Origin: Dehalococcoidia bacterium | GTDB lineage: Bacteria > Chloroflexota > Dehalococcoidia > Bin125 | NCBI GenBank assembly: GCA_034421135.1 | Contig: DAOUKQ010000029.1 | Location: 76,357-140,356, forward strand | DNA length: 64,000 nucleotides | Reading direction: 5' to 3' | Shown: positions 6,486 through 61,640 of the stretch, piece after piece | How the letters are laid out: each line of letters begins with the position of its first letter | How positions within the stretch are numbered: position 1 is the stretch's first letter | Program-made: the position numbers and the translations under genes | The notes under the pieces: model-generated | The model's input: the letters and a program-made list of their open reading frames with translations, nothing else | Told to the model about the DNA's origin: nothing | Database searches by the model: none

Positions 6486-7127
6486 ATGGTGACCACGGCA
6501 GCGCCGTCCAGGCAATCCGCATCCCGCTCGTTCGCCTCAGTCTTGCAGGGCGAGGTCGCGATTGCGTTTCCGGACTCGATCAGCCTGACCGATGAGCTGA
6601 TCTGCGAACTGTCGCGCCTCAACGATTCGCTCAGGCTGGAGCGGGACGAGCAAGGGAGGCTGCTGGTGTCGCCTGGGCCGGACTATGACAGCAACCGAGT
6701 GGGCGCTCGCATTTTGGCGCAAATCTTCGCCTGGGATCCGGAATGGCTTGGGGAGCCGCTTGATCCTTCGTCGACGCTGCACCTTCCCGACCACAATCTG
6801 CGCATGCCGGACGCCGGTTGGCTCAGTCCCGAGACGGCGGAACGGGCGCGCTCGGGCGAGCGCCCCTATCCGCAGGTCGTGCCGGACTTCGTGGTTGAGG
6901 TGCGGTCTTCGAACGACCGGCTGTCCGTTCAACAGGAAAAAATGGCCATGTGGATGCGCAATGGCGTCCGCCTCGGCTGGCTCGTCGATCCGCCTTCGCG
7001 CACGGTCTGGGTCTATCGACCCGACACAGAAGCGCAGGCGCATCAGGATCCCGGAGAGCTTGCGGCCGATCCTCCCTGCGAGGGCCTGACGATCTCGTTC
7101 GAGCGCGTTTGGCTGATGGCGGAGTAG
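6486..7127 (+). CDS. Uma2 family (DUF820) protein, copy 2 (tandem duplicate of 5547..6188)
   Basis: 213 aa, identical to copy 1 except two divergent patches (aa 13-24 and 68-98). Confidence 0.75.
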   Translation: MVTTAAPSRQSASRSFASVLQGEVAIAFPDSISLTDELICELSRLNDSLRLERDEQGRLLVSPGPDYDSNRVGARILAQIFAWDPEWLGEPLDPSSTLHLPDHNLRMPDAGWLSPETAERARSGERPYPQVVPDFVVEVRSSNDRLSVQQEKMAMWMRNGVRLGWLVDPPSRTVWVYRPDTEAQAHQDPGELAADPPCEGLTISFERVWLMAE

Positions 7128-9476: not shown

Positions 9477-10808
9477 ATGACGACCTACCGAGCCACCGAG
9501 GAATCGCAGGATCAACAGGTGCGAGAGCAGTTGCTGCTCAAGGGCATGCCGTCCGAGTACGCGGATAGGCGGGCTTCCCGAAACCAGATACTGGACGGCG
9601 ACCGCCCGATCCACGACTGGTATCGCTTCGTCCTGTCCTTTCCACCGCACCTGGTCCGGGAGTACCTCGAACGCTTTGAGGTCGAGGACGGCATGGTCGT
9701 GCTCGATCCGTTCTGCGGCACCGGCACCACAACGGTCGAAGCCAAGAAGCAGGGAATCGAGTCGATCGGCATCGAGGCGGTTCCCCTCTCAGCCTTCGCA
9801 GCCCGAACCAAGGTCGACTGGTCAATCGATCCGGATGAATTGGTACGCAACGCAGAAGCGATCTCTGAAAGAGCGAACACCAGCATTGCTGCTTCCGATG
9901 ATCAATCGCCTCGTCGGCTCTCCCCTGACCAGAACAGGTTGCTTCTAAAGGATTCGATCAGCCCGCGGCCTCTGCACCGAACACTGCTGCTGCTCGACGA
10001 AATCGATCAGTGCGCCGGTCCGAGCACTCCATTTCTGAGGCTGGCCCTGGCGCGAGAGCTTCCAACTAGGATCGGCAATCTCCGCTTTGGCCCGGAAATC
10101 GGTCTCGGCAACATCAAAGAGGATGCGCCGGTCGTCGATGTCTGGTCCGATCAGGTGCGGCGGATGGCCGACCACCTGCGCATGTGGAAGAAGCACGACT
10201 CAGTGCCGTCGCAGGTGATTCATGGCGACGCACGCACGCCCGACGCGCTCTTGGAGCCCGACAGTATCGATCTGGTCATCACCTCACCGCCATACCCAAA
10301 CGAGAAGGACTACACCCGCACCGTTCGGCTCGAATCGGTGCTGCTCGGCTTCATTCACGACCGGGATTCATTGCGAGAAGTCAAGAAGGGCCTGGTCCGC
10401 TCGAACACGCGAAGCGTCTACAAGCACGATGACGACGACGCCTGGCTTGATCAGTTCCCGTTGATCGGCGAACTGGCCGACCAGATCGAAGCGAAGCGCA
10501 TCGAACTGGGCAAAACCTCAGGCTTCGAGCGGATGTATCACCGCGTGACCCGACTCTATTTCGGTGGTATGGCGAGACACCTGGCGTCCCTCAGGACACC
10601 GCTCAAATCAGGTGCGCGGCTCGCCTACGTCGTCGGCGATCAGGCCTCGTACTTCCGAATCATGATCCGAACCGGAACGCTATTGGCCGAGATTGCGGAG
10701 CGCCTCGGCTACCAGGTGGACAGCATCGACCTCTTCCGGACGCGGGCCGCGACCGCCACCCGTGCCCAGATTAATGAAGAGGTCGTCGTGTTGAAGTGGC
10801 CGGGTTGA
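9477..10808 (+). CDS. SAM-dependent DNA methyltransferase (motif I then motif IV; alpha-class-like N6A/N4C MTase), putative R-M modification subunit
   Basis: 443 aa; motif I VLDPFCGTGTTTVEA at ~aa 75, motif IV DLVITSPPY at ~aa 265 with ~190 aa between (TRD-like); start ATG immediately after lhgO stop; 13-nt overlap with the downstream nuclease-fold gene. Confidence 0.6.
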   Translation: MTTYRATEESQDQQVREQLLLKGMPSEYADRRASRNQILDGDRPIHDWYRFVLSFPPHLVREYLERFEVEDGMVVLDPFCGTGTTTVEAKKQGIESIGIEAVPLSAFAARTKVDWSIDPDELVRNAEAISERANTSIAASDDQSPRRLSPDQNRLLLKDSISPRPLHRTLLLLDEIDQCAGPSTPFLRLALARELPTRIGNLRFGPEIGLGNIKEDAPVVDVWSDQVRRMADHLRMWKKHDSVPSQVIHGDARTPDALLEPDSIDLVITSPPYPNEKDYTRTVRLESVLLGFIHDRDSLREVKKGLVRSNTRSVYKHDDDDAWLDQFPLIGELADQIEAKRIELGKTSGFERMYHRVTRLYFGGMARHLASLRTPLKSGARLAYVVGDQASYFRIMIRTGTLLAEIAERLGYQVDSIDLFRTRAATATRAQINEEVVVLKWPG

Positions 10809-11608
10809 TGCCTCGAATCACGAAGTACGACCGAATCATCTCGCAGATATTCAAGACACACGACGACGGCAGCGCTTCCTTCGAGTTTCCCCGAGCAGCT
10901 ATTGCCGAGGCTGCTGATGCGCTCGGTCTGTCTGCTCCGAAGAACGTCGGCGATGTGATCTATACCTACCGCTCTCGCAGGGATCTACCAGCCGACATTC
11001 AGCAACGAGCGGAGTCGGGGCGCGAATGGATCATCCGGACCGTCGGAACCGCGCAGTATGAGTTCGTCCAGGTCCGTTGGGGAGGAGCGCAACCATCCCA
11101 GAGCCTCGCGGAGACACTGATCCCGGACAGCACTCCGGCCTTGATCGAAAAGTACCGTCAGTCTGATGAACAGGCCTTGCTCGCCATCGTCCGCTATAAC
11201 CGGTTGATCGACGTATTCACCAAGCTGAGCTGCTTCTCGGTGCAGAGCCACCTGCGAACCAATCTTGAGGGCATCAGCCAAGTCGAGATCGACGAGCTCT
11301 ACGTCGGCATCGACCGGCGCGGCGCACACTACGTCCTACCGATCGAGGTCAAGTCGCGCACGGATCGTCTCGGCGCGGCGCAGGTATCCAATCTGTTCGC
11401 CCTCGCCGATCAGAAGTTCCCCAGCCTGATCCCGCGCCCAATCGGCGCGCAGTTCGTTACCGACGATCTGATTGCACTGTTCGAGTTCGAACGCGGCGTC
11501 AACAACCTCGACCTCTCAGTCGTCGCCGAGAAACACTATCGCTTGGCGCCAGCAGACGACATCTCCGACGATCTGATTCGCCGCTACGCCCAAAGACCCG
11601 ACGACTGA
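10796..11608 (+). CDS. Putative Type II restriction endonuclease (PD-(D/E)xK fold), no recognisable family
   Basis: 270 aa; candidate catalytic core GIDRRGAHYVLPIEVKSRTD (D...ExK); translationally coupled to the MTase. Confidence 0.45.
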   Translation: MAGLMPRITKYDRIISQIFKTHDDGSASFEFPRAAIAEAADALGLSAPKNVGDVIYTYRSRRDLPADIQQRAESGREWIIRTVGTAQYEFVQVRWGGAQPSQSLAETLIPDSTPALIEKYRQSDEQALLAIVRYNRLIDVFTKLSCFSVQSHLRTNLEGISQVEIDELYVGIDRRGAHYVLPIEVKSRTDRLGAAQVSNLFALADQKFPSLIPRPIGAQFVTDDLIALFEFERGVNNLDLSVVAEKHYRLAPADDISDDLIRRYAQRPDD

Positions 11609-13431: not shown

Positions 13432-13731
13432 ATGGCCCTGCAATGCACCGCAGAGATCTACGAAGAGCGCGTGGGTGGGTACTCCTCGGTTTGTCCCGAG
13501 CTGGTCATTGCCAGCCAGGGCGAGACGATCGACGAAGCTCGTGCCATGCTCATCGAGGCAATCGAGCTCACCCTCGAGGACATGACTCCGCAGGAATACG
13601 AGTACCGCGTTAGCGGACAGATGTTGGCCGACAGCCACATCTCAGAAGACGAGCTGCGCGACGAATCGGTGTTGGTCGAGTCCAGCGTGGTCGATGTGAA
13701 TGTCGACCTGCCGTTCGTGTCTGCGCGCTGA
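13432..13731 (+). CDS. hicB: HicB family antitoxin (UPF0150 / RNase-H-like fold)
   Basis: 99 aa; MALQCTAEIYEERVGGYSSVCPELVIASQGETIDEARAMLIEAIEL is characteristic of HicB; immediately upstream of hicA. Confidence 0.7.
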   Translation: MALQCTAEIYEERVGGYSSVCPELVIASQGETIDEARAMLIEAIELTLEDMTPQEYEYRVSGQMLADSHISEDELRDESVLVESSVVDVNVDLPFVSAR

Positions 13732-13733
13732 CG

Positions 13734-13943
13734 GTGCGCGTCCGTACCGCACGGCAGATCAACCGGATTCTTGAACGGCAAGGGTTCGTCCAGGTCAGGC
13801 AACGCGGCAGCCACCGCCGGTACCGGGCCGTCATCAAGGGTATTGAACGAAACGTGACCGTGTCTCAGCATCGTGACATTCCTCCACGAACACTGAAGAC
13901 GATCATCGAACAATCCGGACTCCCGCGAGACCTGTTCGAGTAG
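13734..13943 (+). CDS. hicA: HicA family mRNA interferase toxin
   Basis: 69 aa; conserved GSH(R) motif and C-terminal PRTLKTIIEQSGL characteristic of HicA/YcfA. Confidence 0.75.
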   Translation: MRVRTARQINRILERQGFVQVRQRGSHRRYRAVIKGIERNVTVSQHRDIPPRTLKTIIEQSGLPRDLFE

Positions 13944-59712: not shown

Positions 59713-60738
59713 TTGCCTGTCAAGCCGGCCAGGTACGTCCCCCGGCTGGCGCAGCCATCCTGGACCGATATACTGCGTGCATTGGTTCTAAGTTGGAGGT
59801 TGGCCGTGACGAGTCGGCGGGTCGAAGGACAAGCTCGCTTCGCCTCCTTGGCGGATGTTCAGCCTCCGTTTCGCTTCGGCAATCAGGTTCTGTACCTACA
59901 AGACTGTCGAGATTGGCTCCGAACCGCCGCGCGCGACAGCGTGCATGCAGTCGTTACTGACCCTCCATACGGCTTGCACGAGTACCAGCCGGTGCAGGTA
60001 TCGAAACTGCGGAATGGTCGAGGCGGAGTCTGGCGAATTCCCCCTTCCTTCGACGGCGCGCAGCGTCAACCCCTGCCGCGATTCACGGTCAACTCTCCTG
60101 CCGACCGGGCGGAGTTGCGTTCGTTCTTCCGCGAGTGGGCTGAACTGCTGCTGCCTGTGCTGCGACCGGGCGGGCATGTGTTCATCGCGAGCAATCAGCT
60201 CATGTCTCCGCTGGTGGCGTCGGCTCTGGAATCGGCTGGCTTCGAGCGGAGAGGAGAGATCGTGCGGCTCGTGAGGACCCTGCGGGGCGGCGATCGACCG
60301 AAGGGCGCCCACGAAGAGTTCGCCGATGTGAGCACGATGCCGCGATCATGTTGGGAACCGTGGGGCCTGTACCGGCGACCCCTGTCCGAGTCGACGGTCG
60401 CAGGCAATCTCCGGCGTTGGGGTGTGGGAGGACTGCGCAGGGTCTCCGAACAAACTCCATTCCTTGACGTGATCGACAGTGGCAAGACCCCGGCGGCGGA
60501 ACGAGCCATAGCGACACACCTTTCGGCCAAGCCTCAGCGGTTCTTGCGCCAGATCATCAGAGCCTCATTACCCACTGGTGAGGGTGTCGTACTTGATCCC
60601 TTCGCAGGTTGCGCCACCACGCTGGCTGCCGCCGAAGCCGTTGGCGTCCACGGCATCGGAGTTGAGATCGACCCCGACTACTGGGCGCGGGCGTGTGAAG
60701 CGATCGCCCCGCTCTCCGAGCTCCGGGTCGACCAATGA
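59713..60738 (+). CDS. DNA methyltransferase, beta-class N4-cytosine/N6-adenine (N6_N4_Mtase: motif IV before motif I), putative R-M modification subunit
   Basis: 341 aa (true start may be the internal GTG near 59806); motif IV VVTDPPYG then motif I VLDPFAGCATTLAAAEAVG near the C-terminus; ATGA overlap with the downstream gene. Confidence 0.65.
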   Translation: MPVKPARYVPRLAQPSWTDILRALVLSWRLAVTSRRVEGQARFASLADVQPPFRFGNQVLYLQDCRDWLRTAARDSVHAVVTDPPYGLHEYQPVQVSKLRNGRGGVWRIPPSFDGAQRQPLPRFTVNSPADRAELRSFFREWAELLLPVLRPGGHVFIASNQLMSPLVASALESAGFERRGEIVRLVRTLRGGDRPKGAHEEFADVSTMPRSCWEPWGLYRRPLSESTVAGNLRRWGVGGLRRVSEQTPFLDVIDSGKTPAAERAIATHLSAKPQRFLRQIIRASLPTGEGVVLDPFAGCATTLAAAEAVGVHGIGVEIDPDYWARACEAIAPLSELRVDQ

Positions 60739-61640
60739 CCAACGCGGAGTTCCGGTTCCTGCAGCCCATCGTTCCGGACCCTGCAGGACTAATCGATCCG
60801 ACCTCATTGCCCGAGCCTCTGCCCTACGGTCTGGCCCCAAGGCACATTCTCAGGACGGTGGAAGACGTACAAGATCTGATTCACCAACTGAACAGCGTGC
60901 TGCAGCAGTCATCCCACGAGCCCCTGGAGGACCTGCTGGACCGGGCGGCGTTCTCAGGGTTGATCAGCCGGACAGTCGCCGCTCGTCTGGCCGAGTCGCG
61001 ACCTGGGAGCCTCGTTGTCAACCGCTATCACAACGGTTATCCAGATCTGATCCCGAAGGGGCAATACCCAGGCGACGCCATTCAACGAGGCATCGGGCTG
61101 GAGGTCAAGGCCAGTCGCAGCGAGGGTAGCTGGCAGTCACATGGTCCGAGACCAGGCTGGTTCGTCGTGGTCCAGTTCGCAATCGACGAGTCGGAGGCAG
61201 TGGCTCGTCTTCAACGACTACCGACTGTTGTTCAAGCAGTGATGATGGCGAGGTTGACCGAAGCAGACTGGTCCTGGACGCCCGCGCGGGCCAATCGAAT
61301 CCGCAGCGGCACGGCCTCGGTCAAACCAAGCGGCAAGCTGAAACTGCGAAGAGGCGCGGTCTGGGTCGCACCTTCGTTTCGGGAGCGACATGACTATCTG
61401 CGGCAATCCCTCGTCGCCTCCGAGTTCAGACGAGATCTGTCACCGAGAGTGCTGGAACTGCTCGACACCGCTAATGAGGTACTCAACGCAGCATTGATCC
61501 GCGACCAGATTGAACTGCCCAGCGAACTGGACGAAGCCAAGGCTCTGGCAGCAGTCAAGTCGGTGCTCGCGAAGCTGCGACAGGAAGGCCGCGTCGAGTC
61601 CTCCGGCAACAGAGGCTTCTATCGCAGGTCGCGGAGCTGA
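60735..61640 (+). CDS. Putative Type II restriction endonuclease (PD-(D/E)xK fold), no recognisable family
   Basis: 301 aa; candidate core GYPDLIPKGQYPGDAIQRGIGLEVKAS (PD...ExK); translationally coupled (ATGA) to the MTase. Confidence 0.45.
   Translation: MTNAEFRFLQPIVPDPAGLIDPTSLPEPLPYGLAPRHILRTVEDVQDLIHQLNSVLQQSSHEPLEDLLDRAAFSGLISRTVAARLAESRPGSLVVNRYHNGYPDLIPKGQYPGDAIQRGIGLEVKASRSEGSWQSHGPRPGWFVVVQFAIDESEAVARLQRLPTVVQAVMMARLTEADWSWTPARANRIRSGTASVKPSGKLKLRRGAVWVAPSFRERHDYLRQSLVASEFRRDLSPRVLELLDTANEVLNAALIRDQIELPSELDEAKALAAVKSVLAKLRQEGRVESSGNRGFYRRSRS

What the first reader, a model, noticed from the sequence alone, without database searches (positions are those of the whole stretch)
9477..11608. 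Second candidate Type II R-M pair: alpha-like methyltransferase with overlapping PD-(D/E)xK gene
A 443-aa methyltransferase has motif I (FCGTGTT) followed about 190 residues later by motif IV (SPPY), which leaves room for a target-recognition domain. It overlaps by 13 nt a 270-aa protein with a D...EVK core (GIDRRGAHYVLPIEVKS) and no recognisable family. Together with 59713-61640 this gives two independent methyltransferase plus PD-(D/E)xK-protein pairs in 64 kb. This pair sits immediately after lhgO with no intergenic spacer.
Basis: partly seen in the sequence, partly recalled or inferred. Interest (0 to 1): 0.58.

Follow-up and report, generated by a model that had tools for sequence, protein, structure and literature searches.

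The report
Ordinary mobile Type II restriction-modification cassette
This is a two-gene bacterial restriction-modification unit, a DNA methyltransferase followed by a DNA-cutting enzyme from an already catalogued family; it is real and probably active, but it is an ordinary member of a very common kind of system.

Summary
Both ORFs exist as described. The 443-aa protein is an alpha-permuted amino-methyltransferase: motif I LDPFCGTGTT, then about 190 residues, then an invariant TSPPYP motif IV. It has no THUMP domain. The downstream protein does belong to a known family. It matches the PADLOC Type II restriction-enzyme model PDLC03404 end to end (E 1.5e-89), has more than 6,000 homologs of about 265 aa, and gives a confident model with a PD-(D/E)xK-type core (E164, D166, E184, K186).

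The two genes travel together across phyla and in unrelated neighbourhoods. They form a low-GC island (0.60 against 0.65-0.70) and are under purifying selection (dN/dS 0.05-0.11). The nuclease most likely starts at the ATG at 10808 (266 aa), overlapping the methyltransferase stop by one base rather than 13.

About half of the related loci, including small ColE1 plasmids of Klebsiella, Salmonella and E. coli, pair the same nuclease family with a C5-cytosine methyltransferase, often with Vsr. With SPPY, that makes the window's enzyme most likely an N4-cytosine methyltransferase (about 0.7).

The recognition site could not be determined. GGNCC is a weak lead whose depletion signal failed its controls. 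Verdict: new member of a known kind, low interest.

The parts
9477..10808 (+). Methyltransferase gene (443 aa), alpha-permuted exocyclic-amino DNA methyltransferase, probably N4-cytosine
   Evidence: ORF. Pfam N6_N4_Mtase 47.2 bits against a cutoff of 26.7. PADLOC MTase_II PDLC03224 E 1.2e-36 and many others. 8000+ homologs. AF2 model with pLDDT 83.9.
9702..9731 (+). Motif I / SAM-binding loop (residues 76-85, LDPFCGTGTT)
   Evidence: L76, D77, P78, F79, G81, T84 and T85 are invariant in 39 sequences; C80, T82 and G83 are at least 90% conserved. This is the region matched by Pfam N6_N4_Mtase and by PDB 2zie.
9792..10226 (+). Insert between motifs I and IV (residues 106-250), all-helical, putative target-recognition domain
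   Evidence: Helices 119-140, 150-155, 163-179, 184-199 and 219-240 in the model. It is the least conserved folded part: 59-66% identity to close relatives against 83-88% in the catalytic parts. No PADLOC gold-standard MTase profile matches it.
10281..10298 (+). Motif IV catalytic loop (residues 269-274, TSPPYP)
   Evidence: T269 S270 P271 P272 Y273 P274 are invariant in 39 sequences.
10806..10810 (+). TGATG junction: the methyltransferase stop (TGA) overlaps the probable nuclease start (ATG) by one base, suggesting translational coupling
   Evidence: Sequence. Homologs start at MPRITKY. The gene call on the source contig is 266 aa and abuts the MTase.
10808..11608 (+). Restriction endonuclease gene (266 aa from the ATG; the ORF is open from the GTG at 10796, 270 aa)
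   Evidence: PADLOC REase_II PDLC03404 E 1.5e-89, residues 9-264 against 4-258 of 260. 6114+ homologs of about 265 aa. AF2 pLDDT 92.6. dN/dS 0.05 against L001.
11285..11353 (+). Predicted active-site hairpin: E164, D166 ... E184-V-K186 (numbering from the GTG ORF)
   Evidence: E164, D166 and K186 are invariant and position 184 is E or Q in 45 sequences. They lie on the adjacent strands 161-172 and 178-186, which are preceded by helix 124-134 carrying the invariant E125 and followed by helix 194-207.
9477..11608 (.). Low-GC island that coincides exactly with the two genes (horizontally acquired cassette)
   Evidence: GC is 0.60 across the cassette, 0.70 in lhgO and 0.65-0.67 downstream. The cassette has lower GC than its flanks in 11 of 12 loci.

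Best explanation
A horizontally acquired, probably active Type II restriction-modification cassette. Shown: the first gene encodes an alpha-permuted SAM-dependent amino-methyltransferase with the motif order X/I, helical insert, IV. The second encodes a member of a large, catalogued Type II restriction-endonuclease family. The two genes are linked across phyla. Inferred: the methyltransferase marks a short, probably palindromic DNA site on the host chromosome, most likely by N4-methylation of a cytosine (about 0.7; N6-adenine about 0.25). The nuclease uses a PD-(D/E)xK-type metal site (E164/D166/E184/K186) to cut the same site when it is unmethylated, for example in incoming phage or plasmid DNA. 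The M-then-R order with a TGATG stop/start overlap would make nuclease synthesis depend on translation of the methyltransferase. No controller gene or own promoter was found, so the pair is probably read through from lhgO. The recognition sequence is unknown; GGNCC is a weak lead (about 0.3).
For: REase family membership: PDLC03404, E 1.5e-89, full length. Relatives on plasmids score 450 bits on the same model. MTase: Pfam N6_N4_Mtase above cutoff, dozens of PADLOC MTase_II hits, and invariant motif I and TSPPYP. Linkage: a same-family MTase lies immediately upstream of the nuclease in about 27 of 55 genome loci from Chloroflexota, Cyanobacteria, Verrucomicrobiota, Planctomycetota and Acidobacteriota. 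Starting from the MTase instead, 2 of 3 distant homologs are followed by this nuclease family. Mobility: L002 and L003 carry the pair (82-84% identical nuclease) in unrelated neighbourhoods, whereas L001 shares the selD-lhgO-M-R-TPR order. The cassette is a low-GC island, and relatives sit on 4-5 kb mobilizable ColE1 plasmids. Function retained: dN/dS 0.05-0.11, and every family-invariant residue is present. Nuclease fold: pLDDT 92.6 with an alpha-beta-beta-beta-alpha core; the best PDB fold matches are all PD-(D/E)xK nucleases, namely Cas4-family ACE1 (prob 0.97), NucS/EndoMS, HincII and MspJI. Cytosine target: 26 loci pair this nuclease family with a C5-cytosine MTase, 10 of them with Vsr. 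Precedent for alpha-class m4C enzymes: M.TpsD3V (GGNCC), M.TpsD3VI (CCWGG) (PMC5578853).
Against: No activity, methylation or cleavage data exist for this locus or any close relative. Foldseek matches for the nuclease are weak (best E 4e-3, TM about 0.24), so the PD-(D/E)xK assignment rests on motif, topology and the nature of the top hits rather than a significant superposition. The argument for a cytosine target transfers information from nucleases only 41-48% identical to the window's, and specificity may differ between clades. SPPY is typical of N4-cytosine enzymes (established knowledge from the motif literature) but is not absolute proof. No promoter, terminator or controller protein was detected, and the scan is tuned to sigma-70 promoters, so regulation is unknown.
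Confidence: 0.88

Rival explanations
1. The methyltransferase is an N6-adenine rather than an N4-cytosine DNA methyltransferase. It is still a Type II R-M system, but it protects by m6A.
For: Pfam N6_N4_Mtase does not separate the two chemistries. The weak NCBIfam and PDB sequence matches around motif I are mostly to adenine methyltransferases such as CcrM. Nuclease specificity could differ between the alpha-partnered and m5C-partnered clades, which are only 41-48% identical.
Against: Motif IV is an invariant S-P-P-Y in all 39 family members; adenine enzymes typically have D/N-P-P-Y/F/W (established knowledge). The same nuclease family is protected by C5-cytosine methylation in the sister clade. 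Alpha-class m4C enzymes are documented experimentally.
Confidence: 0.22
2. The first gene is an RNA (tRNA/rRNA m2G) methyltransferase of the Trm11/Trm14/RlmL type, and its position next to a nuclease is incidental.
For: The best PDB fold matches of the model are archaeal Trm11 (E 3e-5) and Trm14. Pfam UPF0020 (RMKL-like) scores 25.8 bits, just above its cutoff of 22.3. There are weak NCBIfam hits to Trm14 and RlmD.
Against: All of these matches are confined to the shared Rossmann/motif-I core: the UPF0020 match covers 35 residues, and the Trm11 match has TM about 0.3 and 10% identity. There is no THUMP domain. Residues 1-33 are disordered and poorly conserved, motif I begins at residue 74, and the only large insert is all-helical. 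Motif IV is SPPY, not D/NPPY. The gene is linked to a Type II REase across phyla, and where it is absent a DNA C5-methyltransferase takes its place. It lies in a low-GC mobile cassette rather than a translation-related neighbourhood.
Confidence: 0.02
3. The cassette is a decaying or domesticated remnant, for example a solitary methyltransferase used for regulation with an inactive nuclease.
For: Solitary copies of this methyltransferase family exist: a cyanobacterial locus has no nuclease or remnant. Truncated nuclease copies exist in some loci (L039, L047, L049, L053, L054). The pair has no promoter of its own that could be detected.
Against: The window's nuclease is full length and keeps all 38 family-invariant residues, including E125, E164, D166 and K186. 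dN/dS is 0.05 against L001. The gene is conserved in the syntenic relative L001.
Confidence: 0.06

Closest known systems
Type II R-M systems of the PADLOC REase_II PDLC03404 / MTase_II PDLC03326 type, e.g. on ColE1 plasmids such as Klebsiella pneumoniae pB1019 (NC_019988) and on Paracoccus seriniphilus p12374
   Same: Same nuclease family (43% identity over 257 residues to the plasmid enzyme; same PADLOC model). Same M-then-R gene order with overlapping or abutting genes. Same size of about 265 aa.
   Different: Those systems use a C5-cytosine methyltransferase of about 416-441 aa, often with an upstream Vsr repair gene. The window uses an unrelated alpha-class amino-methyltransferase and has no Vsr. 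In a midpoint-rooted NJ tree without bootstrap support, the m5C-partnered nucleases form one clade nested among the alpha-partnered ones.
M.TpsD3V of Thioflexothrix psekupsii D3 (GGNCC, m4C, Type II alpha; PMC5578853)
   Same: Same enzyme class as inferred here: alpha-permuted N4-cytosine methyltransferase of a Type II system acting on a short GC-rich palindrome.
   Different: The same paper lists alpha-class m4C enzymes for CCWGG and GGCC as well, so the class does not fix the site.
Sau96I system (GGNCC), from my own memory: m5C methyltransferase of about 430 aa and nuclease of about 261 aa
   Same: The sizes match the m5C-partnered relatives (416-450 aa and about 265 aa) and the 260-position PADLOC model. 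Orlowski and Bujnicki predicted a PD-(D/E)XK fold for Sau96I (PMC2441816).
   Different: No sequence comparison was possible, the original paper is not held, and no source names any family member. This is a lead, not a finding.
AvaII / HgiCII (GGWCC) systems
   Same: Short GC-rich palindrome and cytosine methylation (M.AvaII is m5C; PMC8112702).
   Different: R.AvaII has solved structures (PMC7337904), yet neither the protein nor the family profile finds any PDB sequence, so this is not the AvaII nuclease family. HgiCII could not be tested.
Archaeal Trm11 / Trm14 tRNA m2G methyltransferases
   Same: Shared Rossmann-fold amino-methyltransferase core with the same linear order of motif I then xPPY motif IV. 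These are the best PDB fold matches of the MTase model.
   Different: They carry an N-terminal THUMP RNA-binding domain and D/NPPY. The window protein has neither, and it is genetically tied to a restriction endonuclease.

Membership tests
Type II restriction-modification system | A DNA methyltransferase with a SAM-binding motif I and a catalytic motif IV | tested here: met
   LDPFCGTGTT and TSPPYP are invariant or nearly so. Pfam N6_N4_Mtase is above its cutoff. PADLOC MTase_II hits reach 1.2e-36.
Type II restriction-modification system | An adjacent, separately encoded endonuclease of a recognised restriction-enzyme family | tested here: met
   PADLOC REase_II PDLC03404, E 1.5e-89, covering 255 of 260 profile positions.
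Type II restriction-modification system | Conserved co-occurrence of the two genes in unrelated genomes and contexts | tested here: met
   About 27 loci have the same MTase family and 26 have an m5C MTase directly upstream of the nuclease. The reverse test gives 2 of 3. Flanks differ in L002 and L003.
Type II restriction-modification system | Site-specific cleavage that is blocked by the cognate methylation | not testable with these tools
   Requires expression, digestion and methylome experiments.
Alpha-class N4-cytosine DNA methyltransferase | Linear order motif X/I, then target-recognition insert, then motif IV | tested here: met
   Motif I at 76-85, a 145-residue helical insert, motif IV at 269-274. 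The Pfam match places residues 52-101 on the C-terminal part of the beta-ordered profile (163-211 of 221), as expected for a circular permutation.
Alpha-class N4-cytosine DNA methyltransferase | Motif IV S-P-P-Y/F rather than D/N-P-P-Y/F/W | tested here: met
   S270-P-P-Y273 is invariant in 39 sequences.
Alpha-class N4-cytosine DNA methyltransferase | The product is N4-methylcytosine | not testable with these tools
   Indirect support only: the sister nuclease clade is protected by C5-cytosine methyltransferases.
PD-(D/E)xK nuclease superfamily | Alpha-beta-beta-beta-alpha-beta core with an acidic residue on the second strand and (D/E/Q)xK on the third | tested here: met
   Helix 124-134 (E125), strands 145-157, 161-172 (E164, D166) and 178-186 (E184, K186), helix 194-207. 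These residues are invariant except that position 184 is E or Q.
PD-(D/E)xK nuclease superfamily | Significant structural superposition on solved members | tested here: inconclusive
THUMP-type RNA m2G methyltransferases (Trm11, Trm14, RlmL) | N-terminal THUMP RNA-binding domain | tested here: not met
   No Pfam THUMP hit. Only 73 residues precede motif I, and the first 33 are disordered and variable.
THUMP-type RNA m2G methyltransferases (Trm11, Trm14, RlmL) | Full-length similarity of the catalytic domain, with D/NPPY | tested here: not met
   The UPF0020 match covers 35 residues. NCBIfam Trm14 scores 17 bits against a cutoff of 280. Fold match has TM 0.3 and 10% identity. The motif is SPPY.
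AvaII restriction endonuclease family | Sequence similarity to R.AvaII (solved structure) | tested here: not met
   No PDB sequence hit at E up to 10 with either the protein or the family profile.
Sau96I-like (GGNCC) systems | Sequence similarity to R.Sau96I / M.Sau96I | not testable with these tools
   No Sau96I sequence is reachable, the paper is not held, and no named homolog appeared in three protein searches.
Sau96I-like (GGNCC) systems | Depletion of GGNCC specific to genomes or genes that carry the system | tested here: inconclusive
   GGNCC obs/exp is 0.81 in carrier loci and 0.61 in the R genes. It is also 0.66 in flanking genes and 0.69-0.82 (shuffle) or 0.87-0.99 (Markov) in three replicons without the nuclease.

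The most novel reading that the evidence does not exclude
The window's methyltransferase represents an uncharacterised alpha-class m4C lineage whose target-recognition insert matches no gold-standard enzyme. On this reading it is the ancestral partner of the nuclease family. One large clade, mainly Proteobacteria and including clinical ColE1 plasmids, later replaced it with an m5C methyltransferase plus Vsr. The same nuclease would then be blocked by either N4- or C5-methylation of one site, which would make the family a natural system for studying how R-M systems swap their modification chemistry and why m4C partners are kept in these mostly non-proteobacterial lineages, possibly because m5C carries a deamination cost.
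Probability: 0.3. Interest if true: 0.35.

Novelty: new member of a known kind. Interest (0 to 1): 0.2.

Why it matters
It matters mainly for annotation. A protein family with thousands of members, labelled only 'endonuclease' or 'hypothetical protein' in public records and absent from Pfam and NCBIfam, can be annotated as a Type II restriction endonuclease with a PD-(D/E)xK-type active site. Its upstream partner can be annotated as a DNA methyltransferase, not an RNA one.

For the organism, an uncultured Chloroflexota/Dehalococcoidia-like bacterium, the cassette adds one barrier to foreign DNA. It also predicts a short methylated motif that would help methylome-based binning and any future genetic work.

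The pairing of one nuclease family with two unrelated methyltransferase classes is a tidy example of modular R-M evolution, but the phenomenon is already known.

Tried and rejected
1. Naming the prototype enzyme failed. Pfam, NCBIfam and PDB sequence and profile searches found nothing for the nuclease. Three large protein searches and a cluster look-up returned only 'endonuclease' or 'hypothetical protein'. Plasmid annotations were no better, and accession and plasmid-name literature searches gave no specificity.

2. AvaII was rejected. It has solved structures but shows no sequence match, and M.AvaII is an m5C enzyme.

3. McaTI was considered and set aside. Its gene order is M-R-V rather than V-M-R, and no sequence was available.

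4. I tried to infer the recognition site from avoidance. Markov obs/exp over 550 kb of carrier loci put GGNCC near the top. Scoring the R genes against the locus background was confounded by their lower GC. A synonymous-codon shuffle still ranked GGNCC as the most depleted GC-containing palindrome in R genes. The controls undid this: flanking genes and three replicons without the nuclease show similar depletion. I therefore do not claim a site.

5. I compared the m5C partner with solved m5C methyltransferases. The best match is an E. coli O157 prophage enzyme of unknown specificity (3g7u), and M.HaeIII aligns only outside the recognition region.

6. The E. coli genome search found only short matches to prophage methyltransferases.

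8. The promoter and terminator scan found nothing.

9. The Sau96I paper and the supplements of two other papers are not held.
Full report
OBSERVATION. FCGTGTT occupies residues 79-85 and SPPY residues 270-273, and the quoted string GIDRRGAHYVLPIEVKS is at residues 171-187 of the second protein. The upstream gene is L-2-hydroxyglutarate oxidase (NF008726, 528 bits against a cutoff of 299). It ends 10 nt before the methyltransferase start. One detail needs correcting. The closest homologs of the second protein begin MPRITKY, and the gene caller on the source contig (ENA ERZ23495175, scaffold_72, 150 kb) reports 266 aa abutting the methyltransferase. The likely start is therefore the ATG at 10808, which shares one base with the TGA stop (TGATG). 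The overlap is 1 nt, not 13.

THE METHYLTRANSFERASE. Pfam N6_N4_Mtase is above its gathering score, but the match covers only residues 52-101 and maps to the C-terminal part of the profile (163-211 of 221). That is what a circular permutation of the beta-ordered Pfam model would give. PADLOC returns 58 methyltransferase models. The best, PDLC03224 (E 1.2e-36), covers the regions around motif I and after motif IV but not the segment between them. In an alignment of 39 family members (57-79% identical to the window protein), motif I LDPFCGTGTT and motif IV TSPPYPNEKDY are invariant or nearly so. The first 35 or so residues are variable. The AlphaFold model (pLDDT 83.9) shows residues 1-33 disordered, a Rossmann core, and an all-helical insert at about 105-245. 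This insert is the least conserved folded part, at 59-66% identity to close relatives against 83-88% in the catalytic parts. It is the natural candidate for the target-recognition domain. This is the alpha architecture.

THE NUCLEASE. Pfam, NCBIfam and PDB sequence and profile searches find nothing. PADLOC's Type II restriction-enzyme model PDLC03404 matches end to end (E 1.5e-89; residues 9-264 on positions 4-258 of 260). So 'no recognisable family' was wrong. The family is large: more than 6,114 hits, nearly all 262-270 aa. In 45 aligned members E125, E164, D166 and K186 are invariant, and position 184 is E or Q. The model is confident (pLDDT 92.6, pTM 0.87). It places E164/D166 and E184/K186 on adjacent antiparallel strands (161-172 and 178-186), flanked by helices 124-134 and 194-207. 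That is the PD-(D/E)xK core topology. Foldseek against the PDB gives no strong match, but the best hits are all PD-(D/E)xK nucleases: Cas4-family ACE1 (E 4e-3, prob 0.97), NucS/EndoMS, HincII and MspJI. The fold class is supported, and there is no close solved relative.

LINKAGE AND MOBILITY. A scan of species-representative genomes returned 55 loci encoding the nuclease family. In about 27 of them a homolog of the window's methyltransferase lies immediately upstream. The hosts include Chloroflexota, Cyanobacteria, Verrucomicrobiota, Planctomycetota and Acidobacteriota. The nearest relative (L001, a Chloroflexota MAG, 89%) shares the selD-lhgO-M-R-TPR order. L002 and L003 (Dehalococcoidia, 82-84%) carry the pair in unrelated surroundings. 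Starting instead from distant methyltransferase homologs, two of three are followed by this nuclease family (59% and 46% identity). The third, from a cyanobacterium, is solitary. In the window, GC falls from 0.70 in lhgO to 0.60 exactly across 9477-11608 and then recovers. The cassette has lower GC than its flanks in 11 of 12 loci. Both genes are under purifying selection (dN/dS 0.05-0.11).

THE PARTNER SWAP. In 26 loci the nuclease is preceded by a C5-cytosine methyltransferase of about 416-450 aa (FAGxGG, PCQGFS, ENV), and in 10 of these a Vsr-like gene lies upstream. The same arrangement is annotated on Paracoccus seriniphilus p12374 (vsr, DNA cytosine methyltransferase, endonuclease). It also occurs on 4-5 kb mobilizable ColE1 plasmids of Klebsiella, Salmonella, E. 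coli and Citrobacter, such as pB1019. One paper notes in passing that pB1019 carries an R-M system (PMC5864857). These nucleases score about 450 bits on PDLC03404, and their partners score about 580 bits, full length, on one model, PDLC03326. The characterised prototype behind the PADLOC model is therefore an m5C-type system, and the window holds a variant with a different methyltransferase class. In a midpoint-rooted neighbour-joining tree without bootstrap support, the m5C-partnered nucleases form one clade nested among alpha-partnered ones, with one possible second swap at L014. Cytosine methylation protects against the sister clade, and motif IV is an invariant SPPY, which is typical of N4-cytosine enzymes (established motif knowledge). 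I therefore infer N4-cytosine methylation (about 0.7). Alpha-class m4C enzymes are documented: M.TpsD3V (GGNCC) and M.TpsD3VI (CCWGG) in Thioflexothrix psekupsii (PMC5578853).

THE RNA-METHYLTRANSFERASE RIVAL. The finding named this as its refutation test. Three things point that way. The best PDB fold matches of the methyltransferase model are archaeal Trm11 and Trm14 (E 3e-5). Pfam UPF0020 is marginally above its cutoff. There are weak NCBIfam hits to Trm14 and RlmD. All are confined to the shared Rossmann/motif-I core: the UPF0020 match covers 35 residues, the Trm11 match has TM about 0.3 and 10% identity, and the NCBIfam Trm14 score is 17 bits against a cutoff of 280. There is no THUMP hit and no room for one before motif I, the only insert is all-helical, and motif IV is SPPY. 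The genetic context also argues against it, because the gene is tied to a restriction enzyme and is replaceable by a DNA C5-methyltransferase. I put this rival at about 0.02.

RECOGNITION SITE. I could not determine it. No source names any member. AvaII is excluded: it has solved structures but gives no sequence match. From memory, the Sau96I system (GGNCC; M about 430 aa, R about 261 aa) fits the sizes, but I could not obtain its sequence or the paper. Site-avoidance statistics first looked promising. GGNCC had obs/exp 0.81 over 550 kb of carrier loci, second only to CTAG. It was also the most depleted GC-containing palindrome in 51 nuclease genes under a synonymous-codon shuffle (81 observed against 133 expected, z -5.3). 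The controls removed most of that weight. The same test gives 0.66 in flanking non-R-M genes, and 0.69-0.82 (shuffle) or 0.87-0.99 (Markov) in three replicons without the nuclease. GGNCC remains only a weak lead (about 0.3).

MECHANISM. Shown: the gene content, motifs, family membership, linkage and selection. Inferred: the methyltransferase modifies a short site on host DNA, probably by N4-methylation of cytosine, and the nuclease cuts the unmodified site through a metal-dependent PD-(D/E)xK centre. The M-then-R order with a TGATG overlap couples nuclease synthesis to methyltransferase translation, which would delay restriction on entry into a new host. No controller protein, promoter or terminator was found, so transcription probably reads through from lhgO. 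That scan is built for sigma-70 promoters and may not apply to this organism. The presence of relatives on tiny mobilizable plasmids fits the selfish, addictive behaviour known for Type II systems.

VERDICT. This is a real, intact, horizontally acquired Type II R-M cassette and a new member of a known kind. The companion claim of two independent pairs in the window is plausible. The second methyltransferase is a strong beta-class Type II match, and the two putative nucleases are unrelated, but the second nuclease has only a weak profile hit. Interest is low (0.2). The only mildly unusual feature is the clean partner swap between alpha-m4C-type and m5C-plus-Vsr methyltransferases within one nuclease family.

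Noticed in passing
window 13432-13943: A HicB-like (99 aa; weak Pfam hit, E 0.003, below cutoff) and HicA toxin (69 aa; PF07927, E 6e-15) pair on the + strand, about 1.8 kb downstream of the cassette, just beyond the TPR gene.
   Followed up: partly
window 6486-7127; also L062 3465-4112, 12179-12820 and 13118-13671: Several Uma2-family ('putative restriction endonuclease', PF05685) genes lie within about 13 kb of the cassette on the source contig. They are unrelated to the R-M pair.
   Followed up: no
whole window; possibly related to 59713-61640: CAGCTG is almost absent from the window: 1 observed against 16.9 expected by a Markov model. It is also depleted across the alpha-partner loci (32 against 113), and CTCGAG is low too (20 against 48.6). 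The second R-M pair has a beta-class N6_N4 methyltransferase (PDLC03215, E 2e-104). Whether it targets CAGCTG was not tested.
   Followed up: no
window 9477-11608 compared with L001 4682-6810: Between the window and its syntenic relative L001, the methyltransferase is 77% identical while the nuclease is 90% and lhgO 91%. Synonymous divergence of the cassette (dS 1.2-1.4) is about twice that of lhgO (0.67). The extra methyltransferase divergence is in the N-terminal tail and the motif I-IV insert. This could reflect weaker codon bias, recombination with another allele, or drift in the recognition domain.
   Followed up: partly
L068 3001-4317 (Logan SRR29904084; protein P0245, named from Neosynechococcus sphagnicola): A solitary copy of this methyltransferase family (59% identical) is followed by glycosyltransferase genes, with no nuclease or remnant in 7 kb. 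It is a candidate orphan methyltransferase.
   Followed up: partly
L061 3495-4697 and L066 (Bosea sp. RAC05 plasmid pBSY19_1): A solitary homolog (54% identical) of the m5C partner methyltransferase sits next to a DUF262 gene, with no nuclease of this family. A 50-kb stretch of the same replicon shows marked GGWCC depletion: 0.58 by shuffle and 0.69 by Markov. This is a single case and its meaning is unclear.
   Followed up: no
L058 2728-3978 (E. coli plasmid p11A17045A_B_KPC) and E. coli O157 prophages: The closest solved relative of the m5C partner methyltransferase is PDB 3g7u (E 5e-75, aligned through the variable region). Short DNA matches to the plasmid M-R query fall in methyltransferase genes on 174 E. 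coli chromosomes, including O157 strains and one annotated in Sakai prophage Sp10. On that plasmid the R-M cassette sits beside a Tn4401 (KPC) transposon.
   Followed up: no
L014 4535-6765: This is the one locus where an m5C methyltransferase partners a nuclease that groups with the alpha-partnered clade in the NJ tree. It suggests a second, independent partner swap. The tree has no support values.
   Followed up: no
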